The position numbers and the translations under genes were made by a program. A stretch of DNA of 64,000 nucleotides. Origin: a virus. The DNA is taken from positions 67,439 to 131,438 of the IMG/VR virus record IMGVR_UViG_3300023174_000068. One strand, written 5' to 3'. Below the pieces are notes generated by a model, which searched no databases, was not told the DNA's origin, and worked only from the letters and a program-made list of their open reading frames with translations. How positions within the stretch are numbered: position 1 is the first letter of the stretch; every line of letters starts with the position of its first letter. This document shows, piece by piece, positions 14,706 to 52,802 of this stretch.

Positions 14706-16403
14706 TTAGTTCAAGTACTGACCAGCGTCAGTAACTTGGATAGTCATAAACTGTTTTTGTGGGAACCAACCAACTTCTGTTACAGCATATCTTGATCTCA
14801 ATAACATTCTTGGAGCAAATGTAGCTTCAGAGATGATAGAGATTGATTGTGCCATCAAGTAAGGAACGAAGATGATACCTGGTTGATCAGGATTGTTCTT
14901 TCTTCCTAAAACGATTCTGTTGTCGTTATATCTCATATAAGGGTCAACGTAGATAGAAATATCACCGATTGAACCTACTGGGTATAATTGACCAGAAGCA
15001 TTCATTTTTGATTTAACAGGGTTAATAGTATATCCAGCGATATCAGAAAGAGCAGCAGCAAGACCTCCATTTGTGATAAGGTATTGAGCAGGACCTACAC
15101 GACCTTCAGTAGCGATGAAGTTAGAAGCGTGAACAATCTTAGTGATAAGTTTTCTCTGAACCGCGTGAGTTGTTTCACCACCAACCGCAGATACATAAGT
15201 TGTATCTAAGTCGAAGATAGGATTACCAGAACCATTTAATGGAGCTGATGTTCTGTTCAAAGTTCCTAATTCGAAGATTTTAGCAACGATTTGTTTTGAA
15301 ATTGTTTGAGACAATTCGTTAACAAGAATAGATTCCATTTTTTGAACGATATCCATACCTGTGTTAGCTTTAATATCTTCGATTTCGGTTCTTCTAAGTG
15401 CTGAAGATACTTCGATAGTACCAACTGCTACAGTTTTAGAAGAAATTTTAGGACCGATAACTCCAGCATAGCTGTCATCATCCATACCTCTATCCATTGG
15501 ATACTGTCCGTTAAATCCTGAACCATACTGAGCCCAGTTAGCAGAGAATCCAGGGATGTGGTCTTCAAGAGCCGAAACTAAATCAACTGATGGACTTTGA
15601 CCACTCAATGATACACCACAAATTGATGTAATTTGAGAAACCATAGAAGCAACTGAAGTAAAGGTGTTTCTAGTTTGGTCGAAAGCGAAAACAGATCCAG
15701 CAGAACCAACTGCAGTGTGAGCAGTGTTGAACTGTCTGAAAGCTCTAAACATTGGGAATCCGTCGATTCTTGAGAATCCTAAAAACTCAACGATACCTTG
15801 TTTAGATGCGGTCGCGTTTAGGGTTTGTGAAATAGTAGCACCCAATCCTGTAACACCAGTCGTGTTAATTGAATAATAGAATGGTCCATTTTGTAAACCT
15901 CCTGTTGATTGGTTGATAGAAGCACCACTACCAGTCAACATTGCAGATTTAATAGCACTGATGTTTGTAGCATTCAATTTGAATACTTGTGGTCTTTCAT
16001 CTGCGTTACCATCTCTTGTATCATCATAACGGAAGTCGATGAAAAGAAGGTCGATTTTCGGACCTGGTGTTGGTTTAACAGCAACAAGGTCAAGACCGAT
16101 TGTTTGAGCTGCAATTTTCATCGCAACTGGAAGTAGGTTTTGACCTACATCACCCGAACCAGCAGCTCCGGTCCAGTTAGCACCTTGAATGGTACCTGTT
16201 GGGTTATTAAGACCAACTACAGGGTTAAGGACAGCACCCATACCTGTAACGTTAGAAGCGTTTACATAAGCATTCTCGTTGATTGAGTGGAACTCAGCAT
16301 ATTCTGACATCCATTCTACTCTATCACCTTCAACTCCCATGTTTTCCAAAACTGGAGACCACTTCTTAATAGCTTTTTGTTTGTCTATTCTAATGTGTGA
16401 CAT
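14706..16403 (-). CDS. major capsid protein, gp23-like
   Basis: KKWSPVLE N-terminus, IGLDLVAVKP, ELSQTISKQIV, VYVDPY-like IYVDPY, GIIFVPY, TFAPRMLLRSRYAV; strongly biased codon usage. Confidence 0.9.
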   Translation of the reverse strand: MSHIRIDKQKAIKKWSPVLENMGVEGDRVEWMSEYAEFHSINENAYVNASNVTGMGAVLNPVVGLNNPTGTIQGANWTGAAGSGDVGQNLLPVAMKIAAQTIGLDLVAVKPTPGPKIDLLFIDFRYDDTRDGNADERPQVFKLNATNISAIKSAMLTGSGASINQSTGGLQNGPFYYSINTTGVTGLGATISQTLNATASKQGIVEFLGFSRIDGFPMFRAFRQFNTAHTAVGSAGSVFAFDQTRNTFTSVASMVSQITSICGVSLSGQSPSVDLVSALEDHIPGFSANWAQYGSGFNGQYPMDRGMDDDSYAGVIGPKISSKTVAVGTIEVSSALRRTEIEDIKANTGMDIVQKMESILVNELSQTISKQIVAKIFELGTLNRTSAPLNGSGNPIFDLDTTYVSAVGGETTHAVQRKLITKIVHASNFIATEGRVGPAQYLITNGGLAAALSDIAGYTINPVKSKMNASGQLYPVGSIGDISIYVDPYMRYNDNRIVLGRKNNPDQPGIIFVPYLMAQSISIISEATFAPRMLLRSRYAVTEVGWFPQKQFMTIQVTDAGQYLN

Positions 16404-16456
16404 AATTTTTTTTATTTTTTTTTATTATCTATAGAAGCCCAATTGAGACTTTTAGA

Positions 16457-18550
16457 TTAAATGTTTTTGAATCTTTCTAAGATAGCCTTAGCTTCTCCGT
16501 CTGAAATTTTATCCTCTTGGATTAACATTTCATGAGAAACTAATTGTTTCGTATAAGATTCATTTTTTTTGAGATTTCTAGTAGACCAGAAATGCTCAAC
16601 TTGTGATTCAGTCATTAGGACTTCAGCAGGATACAATCTAGCCTGTGAAAGGATAGATTTTTTGCTTGAGTCTGTTAACTGTTCCCAGATTGGCTTAATG
16701 TTTTCAGGCATCAATCTGATAACTCTTTCTTCAAGAGATTCATTTTTAGTTGACAGTGCTTCTGCGATTAGAGTTAGAACTTCTTTCTGAGAGAAATAGC
16801 TTCTTTCGTTTATGTGAAGTTTAACAGATTCTTGTTCTTCGTCAGATAGTGCGTAGAAACTGTCTACTTGTGACTTGTTTAAGAACTTCAAGAAGTTCAA
16901 ATCAGTCGATTCAGAAACTTTTCGTTTTTTAGCTTCTTCAATAAGTTTATTTATAGATTCTGATAATTCAGAATCGTCTTTTCCGGATACGTTATAATCA
17001 TTTTCTTTTTCTTCCTCTTTTTCTTCCTCTTTTTCTTTATTATTCCAAGCTTCTTTGTTTTTTGAAGGAATTCCATTATATTCTTTTTCTTCCTCTTTTT
17101 CTTCTTCTTTTTCTTTTTCTTCTTCTACGTTTTCAAAACCAACAGCTGATAAAGAAGGAAACTCATGTGCCATTCCGCCATTTTCGAAAAGTCTTTCACT
17201 ATTAGAATTTAACTTTTCAACAATCATACCTTGATAAGAGATTGATTTATCAAGATTTTCAGCGATATATTCAGAATAAGCGATGTTATCATCTAAATGC
17301 TCTGCGATATACTCGGAGTAAGCGATATTGCCTTCAACGTGTTCTGCTAAGTATTCAGAGTAAGCAATTGAATTATCAAGGTGTTCTGCGATATATTCAG
17401 AATAAGCAATGTTTTTGTCTAAGTTTTCAGCAATATATTCAGAATAAGCAATATTTTTGTCTAAGTTTTCAGCGATATACTCAGAGTAAGCAATGTTTTT
17501 GTCTAAGTTCTCTGCTAAGTATTCAGAATAAGAGATGTTTTTGTCTAAGTTTTCAGCGATGTACTCAGAATAAGAAATGTTTTTGTCTAAGTTTTCTGCT
17601 AAGTATTCAGAATACTCGATATTTTTGTCTAAGTTCTCTGCAACATATTCAGCGTAATTGATGGCTTTTTCAAGATTTTCTGCTAAATAATCATTGTGTT
17701 TAACTAACTTTTCTGTAGTAGACTTAAGAGACTTGTTCTCGTTAACAACAACTTGGATTTTTTCAGCTAAGTAGTCTAAATATTTTACAACTTGTGAGTT
17801 AGTGTTGTTTAATTCTTCATAGTATTCTAACAACTGTTCCATTTTTTTAGGTGTTAGATTACCTTTTGATAAAGCAGTTTTAACTTCTTTTTTAGTTGAA
17901 GCTAATTCGTTAACTAAATACTGCGAATAATCAGTCAACTGTTTTTTGGTGACAAAATCGTTTGTGTTCATATTAAATAATTCATTTATTTTTGACTCGT
18001 CGGACATTTCATATATCCTAAAGTTGGTATTTTCTCTGAATCCCAAAGATTCATTAAGTGGTTTAACGGTCATTTTAGCTGAAGCAAATCCTGGATCAGC
18101 CACTATATCATAAGTAAATAATTTTTTCAGAGACACTGAACCATCAGATTCTGTCACACCGGCGGCTCTTGACGATACGAAAACAGGACATCCATCATCA
18201 ACTAACGCTCTGGCTTCTCTACCCCAATAAGTAGTAAGTAATCTAATCTCGCCCTCTACTTTATTGGCTTCTTTGACGTAATTAACTTTTTCGATTATGT
18301 GAGAAGCTCTAGCCAAAGAGGTATCAAAAACATCTGGGTGATCAAATTCTCCATAAACAGCACCTAAAGTGCTCATTCTTTCCTTTAACTCTTCAAGAGC
18401 AGGTATGAATTTATCAGCAGTGTAGATTCTCTCATTCCTGTTCTTAATCCCAAATTCAGTGAAAGTTCCACCTAAAACGTATTCTTTTTTTGAGGAATTT
18501 TCTCTGATAAGAGATGATGTTGAGTTTTCAACTATTAAAACTGGTTTCAT
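16457..18550 (-). CDS. prohead protease (gp21-like) fused to a scaffold-like coiled-coil region
   Basis: KNRNERIY, GEFDHP, ASHII, VSSRAAG, TYDIVADPGF in the first ~170 aa, then 14-aa repeats and an acidic linker; lies upstream of the capsid gene. Confidence 0.85.
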   Translation of the reverse strand: MKPVLIVENSTSSLIRENSSKKEYVLGGTFTEFGIKNRNERIYTADKFIPALEELKERMSTLGAVYGEFDHPDVFDTSLARASHIIEKVNYVKEANKVEGEIRLLTTYWGREARALVDDGCPVFVSSRAAGVTESDGSVSLKKLFTYDIVADPGFASAKMTVKPLNESLGFRENTNFRIYEMSDESKINELFNMNTNDFVTKKQLTDYSQYLVNELASTKKEVKTALSKGNLTPKKMEQLLEYYEELNNTNSQVVKYLDYLAEKIQVVVNENKSLKSTTEKLVKHNDYLAENLEKAINYAEYVAENLDKNIEYSEYLAENLDKNISYSEYIAENLDKNISYSEYLAENLDKNIAYSEYIAENLDKNIAYSEYIAENLDKNIAYSEYIAEHLDNSIAYSEYLAEHVEGNIAYSEYIAEHLDDNIAYSEYIAENLDKSISYQGMIVEKLNSNSERLFENGGMAHEFPSLSAVGFENVEEEKEKEEEKEEEKEYNGIPSKNKEAWNNKEKEEEKEEEKENDYNVSGKDDSELSESINKLIEEAKKRKVSESTDLNFLKFLNKSQVDSFYALSDEEQESVKLHINERSYFSQKEVLTLIAEALSTKNESLEERVIRLMPENIKPIWEQLTDSSKKSILSQARLYPAEVLMTESQVEHFWSTRNLKKNESYTKQLVSHEMLIQEDKISDGEAKAILERFKNI
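17240..17690 (-). repeat. about 10-11 tandem 42-bp repeats coding AENLDKNIAYSEYI
   Basis: Visible in both DNA and protein. Confidence 0.9.
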
Positions 18551-33021: not shown

Positions 33022-34170
33022 CTATATTAAAATATTCACCACTTCAGGATAGTATCTACACACTTCTTCATTCTTATTATCATACTTAATAACAGAAAGC
33101 ACATATCTCATAGCATTTAATCTGCCAATTTTCTTGTCATTAGAATTTATCACAACCCATGGATTTTTGGTAGTAGATGTCTGTTGAAACATTTGCCTTT
33201 TGAAGTTTCCAATAATCTCAAATTTATCTAAAACCTTTGCGTCGTTTGGAGAAAACTTCCAATATTTTAATGGTGATTGTTGACGTAACTCAAACCTTTT
33301 AATTTGTTTATCCTGAGTAATAGAAAACCATAATTTTATTAAAATAACACCATTTCTGTTTATTTTTTCTTCCCATTTGTTAACATTAGACATAAAATCT
33401 TGATATTGGTCTTCACTGCAATATCCCATAGCAGGTTCTACAACCGCTCTATTATACCAACTCCTATCAAAGAAAACTATCTCACCACTATTTGGTAGAT
33501 GCTTTTCGTATCTTGAAAACCAGTTATTTTTTTCTTCTTCTGTTGGAATCCCCAAAGCAACAACTCTAAAGCCCTTTGGGTCTAAATATTCTGTAAACCT
33601 CTTTATAGTTGAACCCTTACCGGCGGCATCCCTTCCTTCAAACACAATTGCTATTTTCTTTCCGGTTTTTTTAACCCACTCTTGAAGTTTTAACAACTCA
33701 ATTTGAATTTGATATTTTTCTGACTCGTATTTTTCTCTACCAATTATCGAACCCTCACCTTCAAATTCATCAAAGTGACCGGAGTTTCCACCCCTAAGCA
33801 GATTCACTCTTGCTTCTACCGAGGTGTAATATTCATCAAAAGTTTCTCTAATTTTACGTTTTGTGTTTCTATTTTTAAGTTCAAGAATTTGATTTACTTT
33901 TCTTAAAAAAGTTTCAACATTTAACTCTTCCACAAATTCCGGCGTGAATTCATTATTTAACTCGCGCATAATGACCGGAATATCAACTTTTTCTAAATCT
34001 CCAAAATTTAGCTGCTCGGTTTCTTGATCGTAGCTGATACTAGATAGAATATACGTTCTGTATTCAGTTAGTCTGTGTAAAAAATTATCTTTCAACTTTT
34101 TAAGAGATTCTGGGTCTAGATCAGAAACTCTGAGATCTTCTAAGATAAAGTTTTGAAATCGTTTTAACAT
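33022..34170 (-). CDS. ppk2: polyphosphate kinase 2 with N-terminal extension
   Basis: FEGRDAAGKG, FFDRSWYNRAVVE, LIKLWFSI, KYWKFSPND, PWVVINSNDKKIGRLN. Confidence 0.95.
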   Translation of the reverse strand: MLKRFQNFILEDLRVSDLDPESLKKLKDNFLHRLTEYRTYILSSISYDQETEQLNFGDLEKVDIPVIMRELNNEFTPEFVEELNVETFLRKVNQILELKNRNTKRKIRETFDEYYTSVEARVNLLRGGNSGHFDEFEGEGSIIGREKYESEKYQIQIELLKLQEWVKKTGKKIAIVFEGRDAAGKGSTIKRFTEYLDPKGFRVVALGIPTEEEKNNWFSRYEKHLPNSGEIVFFDRSWYNRAVVEPAMGYCSEDQYQDFMSNVNKWEEKINRNGVILIKLWFSITQDKQIKRFELRQQSPLKYWKFSPNDAKVLDKFEIIGNFKRQMFQQTSTTKNPWVVINSNDKKIGRLNAMRYVLSVIKYDNKNEEVCRYYPEVVNILI

Positions 34171-35178: not shown

Positions 35179-35219
35179 TTGATTTAAAAAATTACAAGAT
35201 CTTGGAAATGGAGCCAGTT

Positions 35220-35753
35220 TCAAGAACGAATACTTTACAAATGAAAACATTATCAATTTTTATCTTCTTTATTTTCTTTCACAACTTTGGTCAAACTGTA
35301 AATGATCTAATCATCAAAAAGGTTAATCAATATCGAAAAGAATATAATCTAACACCATTAAAATATTCTTCAGAGGCAAAATTAGCAAATAGTCAAATGC
35401 TCACCTATATGATTGAAACATCAACAATGCCTTTAGACCATTCACAAAAAATTCCATCTTCTTTTGGAAAAACTTTTGATAATTTTTCTGACAGGATTAC
35501 ATATCTATATGGTTACAATTATGAATATATTGGTGAGAATTTATGCACTTTTGATGATAAAAAAACAGATGAAGAAAGAGCAAATAAAGTATTAGAAATA
35601 TGGAAAAAATCTCCAGCACACAACGCTCTTTTACTTAGTGTAAAGTATGACGGTGTTTGTGTTGGATCCAAAGTATCAAACACAATTTATTATGGTAATT
35701 TGTATTACGAAAACACCCCAACCTTTTATTGTGTTTTAACAATGTATAAATAA
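35220..35753 (+). CDS. CAP/SCP domain protein with signal peptide (start approximate, probably ATG near 35241)
   Basis: VNQYRKEYNLTPL, IGENL, WKKSPAHNALLL; hydrophobic MKTLSIFIFFIFF. Confidence 0.75.
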   Translation, partial: SRTNTLQMKTLSIFIFFIFFHNFGQTVNDLIIKKVNQYRKEYNLTPLKYSSEAKLANSQMLTYMIETSTMPLDHSQKIPSSFGKTFDNFSDRITYLYGYNYEYIGENLCTFDDKKTDEERANKVLEIWKKSPAHNALLLSVKYDGVCVGSKVSNTIYYGNLYYENTPTFYCVLTMYK

Positions 35754-38126: not shown

Positions 38127-38903
38127 ATGTCCCAAAAAAATATAAATTTCAAATTTAAGTCTGATAAAGTTTCGGAATTTATCCAGAAAATTGATGAACT
38201 TTCTAAGATTGAAGATACCATCAAAATAAAAATCGACTCCGAAAATATACTGATGTATTCTATTTTGGGAGGTAATGTAATGTTAGCATTTAAAAATTTT
38301 TTACTCAAAACAGGCGACTATTTTGATTTTGAGGATTTTGATTTTACTATAGATTTTATCTTAGCCAGTTCTAAAAAATTTGTCAAAAATTTGAGTTTTC
38401 TAAATACTTCTCACACAGTACTTTGGGATTTTAATTATAAAAAATCAACCGAAAACGACGATATTGTCTGGGTTAGGTCGGTTCAAGTAAGTGGTGGAAA
38501 ACTTAAAGTAAAGTGGTTAGGTGGAGAACATTATGAATTAAGAGATATAAACAAAGATTCTCTTAAAAATAACTTAAATATCAAAAATAAAAAGTGGTCT
38601 TTCTCCATTAAAAAAGAAGACTTTTTAGACGTAAAAAAACTATCTAACATAAATTCAGAAAGAATCGTAAATATAACAATTGAATCTGGGAAAGTCATAC
38701 TTTCTGAAAAATCAGCATGGGAACTTGAAGTTCAATCTATTGACAGTTCGATTTCATCTAATTTAATGCTAAATAAAAAGTTTCTATCGTGTATCGATGA
38801 GAACAAAGATGTTGAATTTAATATTTTTGAAAACTTCATGTTAATTCAAGATGAAAACTCAAATCTAATGCTGTCGTTTGAGCAAAGTTTTGACGACGAC
38901 TGA
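38127..38903 (+). CDS. probable DNA sliding clamp (gp45-like)
   Basis: 258-aa two-fold alpha/beta pattern with acidic end, directly upstream of the polymerase piece; weak sequence resemblance only. Confidence 0.55.
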   Translation: MSQKNINFKFKSDKVSEFIQKIDELSKIEDTIKIKIDSENILMYSILGGNVMLAFKNFLLKTGDYFDFEDFDFTIDFILASSKKFVKNLSFLNTSHTVLWDFNYKKSTENDDIVWVRSVQVSGGKLKVKWLGGEHYELRDINKDSLKNNLNIKNKKWSFSIKKEDFLDVKKLSNINSERIVNITIESGKVILSEKSAWELEVQSIDSSISSNLMLNKKFLSCIDENKDVEFNIFENFMLIQDENSNLMLSFEQSFDDD

Positions 38904-38947: not shown

Positions 38948-39701
38948 ATGACAAAAGGAGAAAAAATTCAAAAAATTGAGTCATTAAAAAAACAAGCAAG
39001 CGAGTTGAAGAAAGAAGTAGACTACTACAACGCTCTTCAGCTCGCTCTGTTTTGACCCCCTCTTAATTATTTGAGAGGGGGTAGACACGCTAAAATTAGT
39101 ATTAAACGGTTCGTATGGGGCATTTGCTACATCCTACTTTATACTCTATAATAACCACGTAGCAGGAACCATTACAGCCCAAGGTAGAGATTTAACCAGA
39201 ACAATGGATAAAGTTAATGAAGAGTTTTGGTATAATCAGTGGCATAAAGACATCGAACTACATCAACAAATATCAATTAAAGACGTAACTCAAATTTCAA
39301 AAGATGAATCTGTGAGTATCTACGCTGATACTGATAGTTGCCATAAAGATTCTTTAATAAGAACGGATAGTGGTAATTTCACAATAGAGAATTGGTATAA
39401 TAGAAATATAAAAAACGGGTCTGGTGGTGAAACTTCCAAAGGACATGAATCTGTTTTAACTGATGATAAAATTTTAAATTTTTCAGAAAATGAAAATCTA
39501 TATTACGCATCTGTTAAAAGAATTATAAGACACAAGGTATCTAAAGATAAATGGAAATTGAAAACAAAATCAGGAAAGGAAATCATTGTGACTAATGATC
39601 ACTCAATGATAGTTTTTAGAAATGGTAAAAAAATAGAAGTAAAACCATCTGAAATAATTGAAAGTGACAAAATACTAGTTTTGAAAACTAATATATACTG
39701 A
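38948..39701 (+). CDS. family B DNA polymerase middle segment (fingers motif B to YADTD) fused to split intein N-half; interrupted at 39047-39089
   Basis: MTKGEK...YNALQLAL (38948-39049) and LKLVLNGSYGAF...ITAQGR...SIYADTD (39090-39335) lie in different frames; then IntN. Confidence 0.85.
39047..39089 (+). other. 43-nt non-coding insert with stop codons and a GC-rich hairpin inside polymerase motif B (candidate translational bypass or mini-intron)
   Basis: CTGTTTTGA-CCCCCTCTTAA-ttat-TTGAGAGGGGG-TAGACACG; removal restores QLALKLVLNGSYG. Confidence 0.75.
39336..39701 (+). mobile_element. split intein N-fragment (121 aa) at the polymerase YxDTD/S site
   Basis: Starts SCHKDSLIRT (block A); KLKTKSGKEIIVTNDHSM (block B TxxH); then stop. 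Confidence 0.9.
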
Positions 39702-39719
39702 TAAAAGTATCTGTATAAG

Positions 39720-40820
39720 ATGGAACTAAATAAAGAGTTTATTGAGTGGTTTAATAAAAATAAAACAAAAGATGAGTATAGAAAAATAATACTTAAATAC
39801 TTTAAAGAATCTCTATATTGTAGAATATGTGAAGATGTAATTTACTATTACGATTCTTCTTTTATTTTTGGTAAAAATGGTTTGAAATTAAAGGGTAAGT
39901 CATTTGAGACATCTAAAGGTATAGATAAAGTATATTACTTGTCAATTTGTGAGGATTGTTTATCTAAAAAATATCCAGAATATCAAGATAAAAATAAATC
40001 TAGAGTATTTAATCAGATGAATTATTTAACTGAATATGCCTTTGATATAGATCATGAAATTGCTGTAAAATGGGTGAAAGAAAAATATGCAATCACCGAG
40101 ACCAATTTAATAAAAAAATGGGGAGAAGAATCAGGGAAGGAAAGATGGAAAAATTATCTCCAAAAACAGTCTTTTTCTAATACATTTGAGTATAAAAAAG
40201 AAAAGTATGGATGGGATGAAGAAAAATTCAAAGAGTATAATAAGTCAAGATCTGTAACATTAGAAAATCTTATAAATAGACATGGTGAGGATATTGGACT
40301 AAATATTTGGAAAAGATATTGCGACAAACAAAAGTATTCGACATCTGTGGAATACTTTATTGGAAAGTATGGAACATCAAAAGGAATAGAAATATATGAG
40401 AATTTCTGTAAAAAAAGATTACATGGCGCTGGGTATTCTATTGTATCAAAAGAATTATTTGATTGTGTTTTGAATAGAATTCCAAACTTTAAAGCATATT
40501 ATGCTGATAACGAGTGGTATTATTACGATAAAGAAAATAAGAAATATTACTTGATAGATTTCTACATAAAGGAATTAAATGTGGGTATTGAATTTCAAGG
40601 TGATATTTGGCATGCTAATCCTAAAAAATATAAACCAAATGATAAACCATATCCTTTCCAGAAGGACTTAATGGCTAAAGAAATATGGGAAAAGGATAGA
40701 ATCAAGAATGATTTTTTAAAAACTAAATTGAATAAATTGATTATAATTTGGGAATCCGATCTTTATAAGGAAGGAATAGAACAAACAGTTAATAAAATAA
40801 TTAAAGAAATTAATGAATAA
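39720..40820 (+). CDS. free-standing Vsr/DUF559-like homing endonuclease between the split-intein halves
   Basis: IDFYIKELNVGIEFQGDIWHANP...WEKDRIK...IIWESD; repeated K(Y/W/H)G-E-x-G helical units; CxxC motifs. Confidence 0.8.
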   Translation: MELNKEFIEWFNKNKTKDEYRKIILKYFKESLYCRICEDVIYYYDSSFIFGKNGLKLKGKSFETSKGIDKVYYLSICEDCLSKKYPEYQDKNKSRVFNQMNYLTEYAFDIDHEIAVKWVKEKYAITETNLIKKWGEESGKERWKNYLQKQSFSNTFEYKKEKYGWDEEKFKEYNKSRSVTLENLINRHGEDIGLNIWKRYCDKQKYSTSVEYFIGKYGTSKGIEIYENFCKKRLHGAGYSIVSKELFDCVLNRIPNFKAYYADNEWYYYDKENKKYYLIDFYIKELNVGIEFQGDIWHANPKKYKPNDKPYPFQKDLMAKEIWEKDRIKNDFLKTKLNKLIIIWESDLYKEGIEQTVNKIIKEINE

Positions 40821-42042
40821 GTTAGAATATTTTTTAGATGATATAGAATCATGTGAATTGGTAGGGGAATTTAATGATGAATATGTTTATGATGTTGAGA
40901 TTGATGATGATACACACACATTTATAGCAAATGATATATTGGTTCATAATTCTCTTTTTGTTTCTTTTAAACCCGCAGTTGACCACTGTGAGTGGAAAAA
41001 TCTTATTTTTAATAATCACTACTTAAACTCAGTAAAAGAAAGGTTTATTATATTGACCAAAGACCAAAATTTGAAATGTCAAAATACAAACTGCATTGGA
41101 ATTGCAAATGACATACACACTCTTAAAAATTTATTATCAAATGATTATGAATTACTACTATTTGATGGTAGCTTTGTAAAAGACAGAGGTCTTAATAGCT
41201 TAAAAGATGATGGAGCATTTACTTCTGAAATAAAATGGAATTGGTCAACTGAACAGGACTTAATTCACGGTATTGACCATTTTAGATTTGGCCAATACTT
41301 CAAAGATTGCTTAGAAGCCTACGCCAATTCATTTGGAGTTGAAAATAAAGAAGATTTTGAACTAGAAAGAATATCGGAATCTATTATAAATATCGCAAAA
41401 AAGAAGTATATCTGCCATATTATCTTTGAAGATGGAATTTCTTTTGAAAGACTATCTTACCTCTATCCAAAAGGCGTCGAATTGGTAAGGTCATCAACTC
41501 CGGCTTTTGCTCGAGAAAAAATTGTAGGAATTGTCAAATATCTGTTTGAGCATCCAGACACCTTTAATATCAAAGACTTACTGAAACTAGTAAAGTCTCT
41601 TAGAAAAGAATTCGAATTAGCAGACATCGATGACATAGCGATGCAGTCGTCCTGCTCTAATTACGAATTCAAAGTCTTACAAGATAAATCCCTCCCCTTA
41701 CAATTTGTTTCCGGAGCGCACTTTGCTGTAAAATCGGCCGCTCACTACAACTATCTCCTAAATAAAAATAAAGACTGGCAGCAAAAATACGAGTTTATTA
41801 AATCAGGAACAAAGATTAAATATTATGTTTGTAGAGACAAATCTATTACCGATATGTTTGCTTACATTAGGGGTTCTTTTCCAATAGAGTTTGCACCAGA
41901 GATAGACTATGACACGCAGTTCGAAAAGTCAATTCTCTCGCCAATAAATTCTATTATTGAGCCACTTGGTATGCCTGAAATCACAAAGAGGCTATCTGTA
42001 GTTATGGACATATTTTCAGGATTTGGCAAGACTGGTTTTTAG
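40813..42042 (+). CDS. split intein C-fragment (46 aa, 40813-40950) fused to the DNA polymerase B C-terminal palm/thumb
   Basis: YVYDVEI..THTFIANDILVHN/SLFV; then ELERI, AKKKY, KGVELVRSSTP, IKYY, IDYDTQFEK. Confidence 0.9.
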   Translation: MNKLEYFLDDIESCELVGEFNDEYVYDVEIDDDTHTFIANDILVHNSLFVSFKPAVDHCEWKNLIFNNHYLNSVKERFIILTKDQNLKCQNTNCIGIANDIHTLKNLLSNDYELLLFDGSFVKDRGLNSLKDDGAFTSEIKWNWSTEQDLIHGIDHFRFGQYFKDCLEAYANSFGVENKEDFELERISESIINIAKKKYICHIIFEDGISFERLSYLYPKGVELVRSSTPAFAREKIVGIVKYLFEHPDTFNIKDLLKLVKSLRKEFELADIDDIAMQSSCSNYEFKVLQDKSLPLQFVSGAHFAVKSAAHYNYLLNKNKDWQQKYEFIKSGTKIKYYVCRDKSITDMFAYIRGSFPIEFAPEIDYDTQFEKSILSPINSIIEPLGMPEITKRLSVVMDIFSGFGKTGF

Positions 42043-52775: not shown

Positions 52776-52802
52776 AAAACCCACTTCTGAGAAGTGGGTT
52801 TT
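52773..52802. terminator. bidirectional terminator
   Basis: AAAACCCACTTCT-g-AGAAGTGGGTTTT between convergent genes. Confidence 0.7.

What the first reader, a model, noticed from the sequence alone, without database searches (positions are those of the whole stretch)
38948..39130. 43-nt stop-containing hairpin inside DNA polymerase motif B: candidate programmed ribosomal bypass or minimal intron
Seen: ATG 38948 opens MTKGEK...YYNALQLAL, then TTT TGA. The rest of motif B (LKLVLNGSYGAF) resumes at 39090 in the +1 frame. The gap holds an 11-12 bp hairpin (CCCCCTCTTAA/TTGAGAGGGGG) extendable by TGTTT/AGACA, which brings both junctions together. A simple +1 slip is blocked by TGA 39072 and readthrough stays out of frame. 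Removing exactly 43 nt gives QLALKLVLNGSYG, the canonical PolB Q-x-A-x-K-x-x-x-N-x-x-YG motif. Known: T4 gene 60 uses a 50-nt hop with matched take-off/landing codons, a stop and a hairpin. Inference: (a) a hop from Leu CUG (39047) to Leu CUA (39090), both readable by tRNA-Leu(UAG), although one Phe codon separates take-off from the stop, unlike gene 60; or (b) splicing, since the junctions GCU/...G/CUA fit the group I U/omega-G rule but no ribozyme core fits in 43 nt, so catalysis would have to be in trans. The flanking polymerase motifs are intact, which argues against a pseudogene.
Basis: partly seen in the sequence, partly recalled or inferred. Interest (0 to 1): 0.92.

Follow-up and report, generated by a model that had tools for sequence, protein, structure and literature searches.

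The report
Ribosome-hop hairpin gap in phage polymerase

Summary
ORF 38948-39055 ends in TGA. A 43-nt gap (39050-39092) holds an 11-12 bp hairpin, and motif B resumes in the +1 frame with no start codon. Independent DNA assemblies carry the gap.

Related phages settle the reading. I found 35 distinct gaps of 36-48 nt, in all three frame relations, at six codons of motif B.
- In 28 of 35, the last gap triplet is synonymous with the codon before the gap (Ala, Leu, Val, Gly, Ser, Tyr).
- The hairpin starts 5-7 nt after that codon, and its stems covary.
- 30 of 35 have an in-frame stop within two codons.
- The downstream frame stays open under strong purifying selection.
- No second polymerase was found in five records.

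An HNH-like homing endonuclease gene lies 60-80 nt upstream of the polymerase gene in 20 of 35 gap-bearing loci and 0 of 45 gap-free loci. The window's copy has lost it.

Best reading (about 0.72): programmed translational bypassing by peptidyl-tRNA re-pairing (CUG to CUA), within a mobile endonuclease-plus-gap cassette analogous to T4 mobA/gene 60 and not detectably related to it. No protein or decisive RNA evidence exists. One RNA-library contig keeps the gap, but DNA carry-over was not excluded.

This scan reported the same family earlier on other DNA. Three literature searches found no publication.

The parts
38948..39049 (+). First coding piece of the polymerase C-part gene (34 codons, MTKGEK...NALQLAL). 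It is the fingers helix leading into motif B, and its last codon, CTG 39047-39049, is the take-off codon.
   Evidence: The same N-terminus (M-T-K/R-E-E-K...) is found in gap-free relatives.
39050..39092 (+). 43-nt coding gap: sense codon TTT, stop TGA (39053-39055), hairpin, 8-nt tail TAGACACG, and landing triplet CTA (39090-39092).
   Evidence: CTA is the only CTN triplet 3' of the hairpin.
39056..39081 (+). GC-rich hairpin with a C5 run on the 5' arm and a G5 run on the 3' arm, 11 bp and a 4-nt loop. It starts exactly 6 nt after the take-off codon. A lower stem, 39048-39052 with 39083-39087, extends it.
   Evidence: stem positions 6-10 covary across 23 gaps.
39093..39338 (+). Second coding piece (+1 frame): KLVLNGSYGAF... 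through motif C YADTDS.
   Evidence: Pfam DNA_pol_B 1.3e-07; tblastn to relatives.
39339..39701 (+). N-terminal half of a split intein (starts at Cys after YADTDS), ending in a stop.
   Evidence: Pfam Intein_splicing 1.5e-10; ORF list.
39720..40820 (+). Free-standing 366-aa ORF between the intein halves. Its only hit is phrog_22677 (function unknown). It is unrelated to the DUF7487/HNH endonuclease that accompanies gaps in relatives.
40813..42042 (+). C-terminal intein half (46 aa, ...LVHN) plus the C-terminal extein of the polymerase (from Ser at 40951).
   Evidence: Pfam DNA_pol_B and Intein_splicing; 61-77% identical relatives.
38127..38903 (+). Conserved 258-aa upstream gene that ends 44 nt before the polymerase ATG. 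This leaves no room for the homing endonuclease gene found at this place in many gap-bearing relatives.
   Evidence: No Pfam or PHROG hit. I did not verify its identity as a clamp.

Best explanation
The 43 nt are a programmed translational bypass (hop) element.

Proposed mechanism:
- Ribosomes translate 34 codons of the polymerase C-part.
- They stall with peptidyl-tRNA-Leu on CUG 39047. At that point the five-G-C base of the hairpin lies at about +10 from the first base of the P-site codon, roughly at the mRNA entrance of the ribosome. UUU and then UGA follow in the A-site path.
- The anticodon lets go. The ribosome traverses the hairpin and its 8-nt tail without decoding.
- The same tRNA re-pairs with CUA 39090.
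- Decoding resumes at AAA 39093 and gives ...QLAL-KLVLNGSYG.

The element belongs to a family of gaps that travel with an HNH-like free-standing homing endonuclease gene placed just upstream of the polymerase C-part gene. By analogy with T4 MobA, the gap most likely breaks the endonuclease's target in the conserved motif-B DNA, so the carrier is immune while gap-free co-infecting phages are cut and converted. The window's phage kept the gap but lost the endonuclease.

Shown: the anatomy, the comparative grammar, the selection on the downstream frame, and the endonuclease association.
Inferred: the hop itself, the identity of the tRNA, the stalling geometry, and the immunity function.
For: 1. 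The gap is real in independent DNA assemblies.

2. Comparative grammar. There are 35 distinct gaps of 36-48 nt. Length mod 3 is 1, 0 and 2 in 15, 12 and 8 gaps, so neither frameshifting nor readthrough can serve them all. The gaps lie after six different codons.

3. Codon matching. The last gap triplet is synonymous with the preceding codon in 28 of 35:
- Ala: GCT>GCA/GCT, 3 of 3.
- Leu: CTT/CTG/CTC>CTA, 13 of 13.
- Val: GTT>GTA/GTT, 3 of 3.
- Gly: GGT>GGT, 2 of 2.
- Ser: TCT>TCA, 1 of 1.
- Tyr: TAT>TAC/TAT, 6 of 13.
Differences are only at the wobble base. Take-off codons end in T in 32 of 35. At the Leu site the landing codon is CTA in 13 of 13 gaps, against 10 of 53 gap-free alleles.

4. 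In 18 of 18 matched gaps of the first set, the landing triplet is the only cognate-box triplet 3' of the hairpin.

5. There is an in-frame stop within two codons of take-off in 30 of 35 gaps. The C-run starts 6 nt after take-off in 27, 7 nt in 5 and 5 nt in 3.

6. The stems covary: positions 6-10 show 3-6 pair types each.

7. The downstream frame is open in 38 of 38 gap-bearing loci. Over 74 codons, median pN is 0.14, median pS is 0.75, and median dN/dS is 0.09 with a maximum of 0.23.

8. Only one split PolB and no PolA were found in five records, three of them estimated 74-89% complete.

9. Gap states are scattered on the polymerase tree. Sister sequences carry gaps at different sites.

10. 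Endonuclease link. The endonuclease is Pfam DUF7487, PHROG 'homing endonuclease', with an invariant YPTIDHK...NLCITKR block. It lies beside 20 of 35 gap-bearing loci and 0 of 45 gap-free loci. In the reverse search, 24 of 24 polymerase genes beside an endonuclease homologue have a gap.

11. An RNA-library contig (X4, depth 56) keeps the gap, and no joined form was seen.

12. Published precedent. In the gene 60 cassettes the bypass protects against MobA and persists after MobA is lost, and wobble-matched codons are the rule (Manning and Atkins preprint, Discussion read). Stem-loops 11-12 nt from the P-site codon block A-site tRNA binding (Bao et al. 2020, passages read).
Against: There is no protein, reporter or ribosome-profiling evidence, so the hop itself is inferred.

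Seven of 13 distinct gaps at the Tyr site have a non-synonymous landing triplet (AAC three times, AAT, GAC, AGC, TAA). They fit only if pairing at 2 of 3 positions is enough, and I could not test that.

The stop is usually one codon beyond the matched codon (25 of 35, the window included). This is unlike gene 60. The codon between is mostly common (TTT is 42.6 per 1000), so a 'hungry A site' must come from the hairpin rather than from the codon.

The hairpin base lies at +10, not at the +11 to +12 measured by Bao et al.

The phage shows no Shine-Dalgarno use (0 of 98 long ORFs), so the gene 60 mini-SD landing aid probably does not apply.

The RNA evidence is weak. It rests on contigs only, DNA carry-over in the RNA libraries was not excluded, and the second RNA library has a hole at 38996-39067.

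The counts are not corrected for shared ancestry of the cassettes.

The window itself has no adjacent endonuclease, so the cassette reading rests on relatives.
Confidence: 0.72

Rival explanations
1. The gap is removed from the mRNA. An unknown RNA-level excision would cut out the hairpin and ligate the ends, as a minimal intron processed in trans, and ordinary translation would follow.
For: A frame-independent mechanism is needed, and excision would provide one. The hairpin could mark cleavage sites. The 7 of 35 unmatched landing triplets pose no problem for excision. One RNA library (X7) has contigs that end at 38995 and restart at 39068, inside the hairpin loop. That hole proves nothing.
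Against: No joined form appears in any laid contig, and the X4 RNA-library contig keeps the gap at depth 56. There is no Rfam family, and 36-48 nt cannot hold a ribozyme core. Excision does not explain three features: the wobble-only codon duplication at six sites (28 of 35), the in-frame stops (30 of 35), or the absence of early cognate triplets (18 of 18). As far as I recall, no such bacterial or phage pathway is known.
Confidence: 0.12
2. The stop is obeyed. The 35-aa peptide and a C-fragment restarted near 39090 are made separately and assemble non-covalently, which would be one more split of an already split polymerase.
For: The enzyme is already in pieces. The N-part gene lies about 90 kb away, and a split intein sits at motif C. 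Stops are present in 30 of 35 gaps.
Against: There is no ATG, GTG or TTG in frame between TGA 39072 and 39204. The landing triplets (CTA, GCA, GTA, TAC, TCA, GGT) are not start codons. The breaks fall inside motif B, even between Y and G of SYG. Five of 35 gaps have no nearby stop. Codon matching would remain unexplained.
Confidence: 0.05
3. The gene is dead, or the gap is tolerated because another polymerase replicates the phage.
For: The record is only an estimated 23% complete, so a second polymerase in the unseen part cannot be excluded for this genome.
Against: The downstream frame is open in 38 of 38 loci. dN/dS is about 0.09 among gap-bearing lineages whose synonymous sites are saturated. 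Only one split PolB and no PolA were found in five records, three of them estimated 74-89% complete.
Confidence: 0.04

Closest known systems
Phage T4 gene 60 50-nt translational bypass within the MobA homing-endonuclease element (Manning and Atkins, bioRxiv 10.1101/2022.08.31.505936; abstract and Discussion read)
   Same: Both are stop-containing coding gaps of tens of nucleotides with a stem-loop at the 5' end and an AU-rich 3' part. Both have take-off and landing codons readable by one tRNA, with wobble differences allowed. Both lie 34-46 codons into the downstream ORF of a split essential replication gene, inside a highly conserved motif, beside a free-standing homing endonuclease gene. In both, the endonuclease is often lost while the gap stays.
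   Different: The host gene differs: family-B DNA polymerase motif B here, topoisomerase in T4. The sequence differs, with a C5/G5 hairpin of 9-12 bp. There are six insertion codons within 30 nt, against two. The stop is usually one codon after the take-off codon. The hairpin starts at a fixed 6 nt rather than at the stop. The phage uses no Shine-Dalgarno sequences, so a mini-SD is doubtful. No dedicated nascent-peptide extension is evident: the N-terminal 31 residues are much the same in gap-bearing and gap-free alleles. The endonuclease carries DUF7487 repeats.
Mitochondrial 'byp' elements of the yeast Magnusiomyces capitatus (recalled as Lang et al. 2014; seen here only as cited in the preprint's Discussion)
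   Same: Both are short GC-rich hairpin-forming inserts in AT-rich genes. Both have matched take-off and landing triplets with tolerance for deviations, an AU-rich 3' part, and no Shine-Dalgarno help.
   Different: Byps are many per genome and spread over several genes. Here there is exactly one per phage record, always in polymerase motif B, and it is linked to a homing endonuclease.
Fractured genes: split inteins with a free-standing Vsr-like endonuclease (Dassa et al. 2009, PMC2677866; passages read)
   Same: The same polymerase gene in this window also carries that arrangement at motif C (39339-40950). Both are ways for a selfish nuclease to sit in an essential gene without killing it.
   Different: That rejoining is done at the protein level by trans-splicing of two polypeptides. 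It does not explain the 43-nt gap, which has no intein sequences.

Membership tests
Programmed translational bypassing of the gene 60 kind (functional class) | Take-off and landing codons that one peptidyl-tRNA can pair with. | tested here: met
   In the window, CTG 39047 and CTA 39090. In the family, 28 of 35 distinct gaps are synonymous, across six codons. The seven exceptions are all at the Tyr site.
Programmed translational bypassing of the gene 60 kind (functional class) | A stop or a slowly decoded codon in the A site at take-off. | tested here: inconclusive
   The stop lies directly after the take-off codon in 5 of 35 gaps, one codon later in 25 of 35 (window: TTT then TGA), and is absent in 5 of 35. 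The intervening codon is usually common.
Programmed translational bypassing of the gene 60 kind (functional class) | A conserved stem-loop at the 5' end of the gap. | tested here: met
   Every one of the 23 gaps folded forms a hairpin, and stem positions 6-10 covary. For the window, z = -4.4.
Programmed translational bypassing of the gene 60 kind (functional class) | A mini Shine-Dalgarno sequence 5-6 nt 5' of the landing codon. | tested here: inconclusive
   In most of the gaps printed the G-run ends 5-9 nt before the landing triplet (8 nt in the window, 13-14 nt in L009 and L010; read off those outputs, not tallied). However, 0 of 98 long ORFs of this phage have GGAG, GAGG or AGGA upstream.
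Programmed translational bypassing of the gene 60 kind (functional class) | One continuous polypeptide is made across the gap. | not testable with these tools
   This needs a reporter, mass spectrometry or ribosome profiling.
T4 MobA/gene 60 cassette (homologous family) | Inserted in the topoisomerase large-subunit gene, with sequence homology to the gene 60 gap. | tested here: not met
   The host gene is PolB. The preprint states that MobA elements are found exclusively in Topo2L, and the word 'polymerase' has 0 occurrences in its text.
Homing endonuclease plus immunity-insert cassette | A free-standing endonuclease gene adjacent to the interrupted gene and co-distributed with the insert. | tested here: met
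   This holds in relatives only: 20 of 35 gap-bearing against 0 of 45 gap-free loci, and 24 of 24 in the reverse search. It is absent from the window. Cleavage specificity was not tested.
Group I/II or other self-splicing intron | A ribozyme core and a spliced RNA. | tested here: not met
   The gap is 43 nt. There is no Rfam match above chance, and no joined form in the laid contigs (contigs only).
Dispersed GC-cluster or MITE-like repeat (byp-like) | Multiple copies per genome. | tested here: not met
   There is one copy in the 131-kb record. Each of four relatives' records (178-242 kb) has one, and a gap-free 635-kb record has none.
Family B DNA polymerase | Exonuclease domain and motifs A, B and C. 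| tested here: met
   The N-part has PF03104 and PF00136 hits at G000:C1 about 16.1-17.6 kb. The C-part has a PF00136 hit, with motif B across the gap and YADTDS.

The most novel reading that the evidence does not exclude
A second, independently evolved natural family of programmed ribosomal bypassing.

Its module is minimal and portable: a wobble-paired take-off codon, a C5/G5 hairpin 6 nt downstream, a short AU-rich tail, and a cognate landing triplet. It works at any of at least six codons of one motif, needs no Shine-Dalgarno pairing and no dedicated nascent peptide, and at the Tyr site tolerates landing with only two of three base pairs.

Homing endonucleases spread it through large aquatic phages as their immunity insert. 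If so, pairing a bypass gap with a homing endonuclease would be a recurrent evolutionary solution, not a T4 oddity.
Probability: 0.5. Interest if true: 0.9.

Novelty: new variant of a known kind. Interest (0 to 1): 0.85.

Why it matters
Efficient long-range translational bypassing in phages has been known only from gene 60 and its homologues in topoisomerase genes. The 2022 preprint still calls that cassette unique.

An independent family with 35 natural variants at six positions would serve as a ready-made mutational series. It could show what a ribosome needs in order to take off, slide and land, in a translation system that does not use Shine-Dalgarno pairing.

It would also show that homing endonucleases have repeatedly solved the problem of protecting their own carrier inside an invariant protein motif by recruiting a hop. 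It explains why polymerase genes of these large phages are called as truncated or frameshifted by gene finders. And it offers a compact element for controlled translational coupling in synthetic constructs.

Tried and rejected
Dispersed repeat. Scans for perfect GC-rich hairpins and for C4+..G4+ hairpins in the 131-kb record found only the polymerase one, plus two hairpins flanked by A-runs and T-runs that look like terminators. A pattern search in five relatives' records found one copy per gap-bearing record and none in the gap-free one.

Terminator. The hairpin has no T-run after it on either strand. I did not run the terminator scan.

Restart. There is no in-frame start codon between 39072 and 39204.

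tRNA genes. None in the window, so the decoding tRNA could not be identified.

Rfam. Only a chance-level hit, E = 0.82 and far below the gathering score.

RNA evidence. No joints. The X7 RNA-library contigs leave 38996-39067 uncovered, which I treat as no evidence.

Shine-Dalgarno role of the G-run. De-emphasised after 0 of 98 ORFs showed SD motifs.

The window's own 366-aa ORF between the intein halves. It is unrelated to the gap-linked endonuclease (BLASTP E = 0.43). It has no Pfam hit and only a chance-level NCBIfam hit (E = 0.0082, 16.7 bits against a 60-bit cut-off).

Endonuclease annotation. A PDB sequence search gave 0 hits, and NCBIfam gave 0. The HNH assignment rests on three things: an invariant D-H...N...N block compared with a recalled consensus, the PHROG names, and an Atlas cluster in which DUF7487 co-occurs with HNH in 85% of members.

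Methods set aside. The MAFFT alignment of the gaps (A1) did not keep the arms in register, so I counted pairs from each fold instead. A single-protein search with the endonuclease reached only 7 loci, so I used an alignment. Of its 78 loci, 24 had a polymerase C-part on the opposite strand within the 3-kb flank. The other 54 showed no polymerase motif there, and I did not study them further.

Alternative take-off from the codon just before the stop. Rejected, because no matching triplet exists 3' of the hairpin and the product would gain a residue inside motif B.

Rows dropped. L011 and L024 (cut before motif B). L112 and L147 (left out of the tree: short, or with a stop upstream). Duplicate sequences were collapsed before all 'distinct' counts.

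Literature. Three full-text searches found no report of bypassing in a DNA polymerase. Supplementary tables of the preprint could not be seen and might list more cases.
Full report
WHAT IS THERE

The window is bases 67439-131438 of a 131-kb IMG/VR virus record with about 31% G+C and an estimated completeness of 23%. Its nearest GenBank relatives by polymerase are uncultured phages of 635-642 kb, at 72-75% identity. Several related IMG/VR records of 178-242 kb are rated 74-89% complete.

The family-B DNA polymerase is in pieces:
- A 508-aa N-part (exonuclease domain and motif A) is encoded about 90 kb away on the other strand.
- The C-part starts at ATG 38948.
- After YADTDS, the C-part carries a split intein with a free-standing 366-aa ORF between the halves.

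Thirty-four codons into the C-part the frame breaks: CTG 39047, TTT, TGA 39053. A hairpin follows at 39056-39081. Motif B resumes at CTA AAA TTA... (39090 onwards) in the +1 frame. That frame is closed by TGA 39072 and has no start codon before 39204. The hairpin folds at -25 kcal/mol in a 71-nt context, z = -4.4. It is the only hairpin of its kind in the record.

IS IT REAL

Yes. A 16.5-kb DNA contig from a different study differs from the window at 34 positions over 4.5 kb and still runs through the gap without an indel. A contig of a third study does the same. Two more metagenome contigs carry the identical gap (L085, L086).

COMPARATIVE ANATOMY

I fetched relatives in three ways: with the C-terminal extein (viral contigs), with the stretch between motifs B and C (metagenome contigs), and from GenBank.

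Of 107 loci of the clade in which both anchors could be placed, 69 encode ...Q-x-A-L-K-L-V-L-N-G-S-Y-G-A-F without interruption. The other 38 carry a gap, giving 23 distinct gap sequences. A reverse search that started from the endonuclease described below added 12 distinct gaps. The total is 35.

The gaps share a grammar:
- Length. They are 36-48 nt, and length mod 3 is 1, 0 and 2 in 15, 12 and 8 gaps. Two near-identical contigs (L015, L017) differ only by one G in the G-run.
- Position. They lie after six different codons within 30 nt: Ala, Leu, Val, Gly, Ser and Tyr of Q-x-A-L-K-L-V-L-N-G-S-Y.
- Codon matching. The last triplet of the gap is synonymous with the codon before the gap in 28 of 35, with differences only at the third base. 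All 22 gaps at the five non-Tyr sites match.
- Take-off and landing bias. Take-off codons end in T in 32 of 35. At the Leu site the landing triplet is CTA in 13 of 13, although gap-free alleles use CTA in only 10 of 53.
- No early landing sites. In 18 of 18 matched gaps of the first set, no other triplet of the same codon box lies between the hairpin and the landing triplet.
- Stops. An in-frame stop follows the take-off codon directly in 5 gaps, after one sense codon in 25, and not at all in 5.
- Hairpin placement. The C-run begins 6 nt after the take-off codon in 27 gaps, 7 nt in 5 and 5 nt in 3. The 3' tail is variable and AU-rich.
- Hairpin structure. The stems keep five C-G pairs at the base, always with the C-run on the 5' arm. 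Positions 6-10 vary with 3-6 pair types each while staying paired.

IS THE GENE ALIVE

- In all 38 gap-bearing loci of the first set, the frame after the gap is open for the full C-part (428-436 aa) or up to a split intein (183-195 aa).
- Among 21 gap-bearing representatives, the 74 codons after the gap have a median pN of 0.14 against a pS of 0.75. The median dN/dS is 0.09 and the maximum 0.23, over the 102 of 210 pairs with a finite dS.
- Family searches in five records found one split PolB each, with no second copy of the same region and no PolA.

THE ENDONUCLEASE LINK

In many gap-bearing relatives a gene of 280-389 aa lies on the opposite strand, with its start 60-80 nt upstream of the polymerase ATG.
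- It hits Pfam DUF7487 and PHROG families named homing endonuclease.
- Eleven copies share CxxC pairs, KYG-type repeats and an invariant C-terminal block, YPTIDHK...NLCITKR.INS. I read this block as HNH-like from a recalled consensus.
- An Atlas cluster pairs DUF7487 with HNH in 85% of its members.

Among loci with at least 1200 nt upstream, the gene is present beside 20 of 35 gap-bearing polymerase genes and 0 of 45 gap-free ones. Fisher's exact p is 9e-10, not corrected for kinship. Two more loci show a 67-aa remnant. In the reverse direction, 24 of 24 polymerase C-part genes found within 3 kb of an endonuclease homologue have a gap.

On a tree of the flanking polymerase residues (75 rows, 104 columns, many forks unresolved), gap states need at least 15 changes. 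Well-supported sisters carry gaps at different sites. So the gaps move relative to the gene.

The window has no such gene. The upstream ORF ends 44 nt before the ATG. This resembles the gene 60 relatives that lost MobA but kept the bypass (preprint Discussion).

HOW IT MOST LIKELY WORKS

A mechanism that ignores frame, keeps a wobble-matched copy of the last decoded codon at the far end of the gap, keeps that copy unique in the tail, and keeps a stop next to the take-off point is best explained by a ribosome that carries its peptidyl-tRNA across the gap and re-pairs it. This is programmed translational bypassing.

From established decoding rules (recalled, not tested here), U-ending take-off codons are read by wobble. 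The A-ending landing codons (or C-ending, for Tyr) would pair in Watson-Crick fashion with a U34 or G34 tRNA, which would favour leaving and capture.

The hairpin base sits about 10 nt from the first base of the P-site codon. That is close to the position (11-12 nt) at which stem-loops block A-site tRNA binding and translocation in E. coli (Bao et al. 2020, passages read). I infer that the hairpin, not the A-site codon, makes the A site 'hungry', and that the stop ends the ribosomes that fail to hop.

The phage shows no Shine-Dalgarno use (0 of 98 long ORFs; A-rich, G-poor leaders). From memory this is typical of Bacteroidota hosts. A gene 60-style mini-SD is therefore doubtful.

By analogy with MobA, the gap would protect the carrier's motif-B DNA from its own endonuclease. 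Several insertion points within one roughly 30-bp target would all serve that purpose.

WHAT DOES NOT FIT

- Seven of 13 distinct gaps at the Tyr site have AAC, AAT, GAC, AGC or TAA as the landing triplet. Each could still pair at two of three positions with a Tyr anticodon, but that is an after-the-fact reading.
- The stop is usually one codon beyond the matched codon.
- The polarity of the C and G runs is invariant, for no reason that I can show.
- RNA evidence is thin. One RNA-library contig (25 kb, depth 56) keeps the gap and no joined form was seen, but DNA carry-over was not excluded. The other RNA library has a hole over the hairpin.
- No protein evidence exists.

COMPARISON AND NOVELTY

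The system works like T4 gene 60 with its MobA element. It is not a member of that family: the host gene, the gap sequence and the geometry differ, and the preprint describes MobA elements as confined to the topoisomerase gene.

It shares GC-hairpin form and independence from SD with yeast mitochondrial byps, but it is single-copy and linked to an endonuclease.

Three full-text searches found no report of bypassing in a DNA polymerase. The preprint's supplements could not be seen.

This scan reported the same family earlier on other genomes, with the same reading. I saw those notes only, and they are not independent evidence. One earlier claim of a different, very short polymerase gap is marked there as having partly failed a check.

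- Six insertion codons.
- The fixed 6-nt spacing.
- The bias from a wobble take-off codon to a cognate landing codon.
- The unique-landing-triplet rule.
- The exceptions at the Tyr site.
- The lack of Shine-Dalgarno use.
- The finding that this window holds an orphan gap without its endonuclease.

VERDICT

The bypass reading is supported at about 0.72. It is a new variant of a known kind and of high interest, pending a reporter or mass-spectrometry test.

Noticed in passing
window 39339-40950: Motif C of the same polymerase is interrupted by a split intein (N-half after YADTDS, 46-aa C-half ending LVHN). A free-standing 366-aa ORF (39720-40820) lies between the halves, matching the 'fractured gene' layout of Dassa et al. 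2009. The ORF hits only phrog_22677 (function unknown), and a 66% identical copy sits at the same place in L013.
   Followed up: partly
G000:C1 about 16098-17624 (L001 772-2298, minus strand), outside the window: The N-terminal 508 aa of the polymerase (exonuclease domain and motif A) are encoded about 90 kb from the C-part. The split falls at the tip of the fingers, and both ends are Lys/Glu-rich helices. Gap-free relatives share the split.
   Followed up: partly
whole record G000 (98 ORFs of at least 150 aa): No Shine-Dalgarno motifs lie upstream of start codons (0 of 98 with GGAG, GAGG or AGGA). Leaders are A-rich and G-poor. From memory this is typical of Bacteroidota-type initiation and hints at the host.
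   Followed up: partly
L002 4873-5412, L003 5053-5571, L010 5023-5556: Relatives encode a full translation initiation factor IF-3 homologue (IF3_N plus IF3_C) directly upstream of the polymerase C-part gene. It occurs in gap-free (L002) and gap-bearing (L003, L010) loci, so it is not tied to the gap.
   Followed up: no
L015 5207-5254 and L017 5208-5254: Two near-identical contigs differ by one G in the G-run of the gap (42 nt against 41 nt). This is either a homopolymer sequencing difference or natural variation, and it is harmless only if the mechanism ignores frame.
   Followed up: no
window 38996-39067 in RNA library X7: Contigs of one metatranscriptome stop at 38995 and restart at 39068, in the hairpin loop. 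The other RNA library and the DNA runs go through. This could be low depth, a reverse-transcription stop or RNA cleavage, and it cannot be interpreted from contigs.
   Followed up: no
window 33022-34170 (minus strand) and 35202-35753 (plus strand): There is a polyphosphate kinase 2 gene (PPK2, E = 1.8e-78) and a CAP/cysteine-rich secretory family protein near the replication genes.
   Followed up: no
window about 52780-52798 and G000:C1:48400-48420: The only other perfect GC-rich hairpins in the record are flanked by an A-run and a T-run. They look like bidirectional intrinsic terminators.
   Followed up: no
L006 and L008, 250-450 nt upstream of the polymerase ATG: A 67-aa remnant, 45% identical to the gap-linked endonuclease, suggests decay of the endonuclease gene while the gap is kept.
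   Followed up: no
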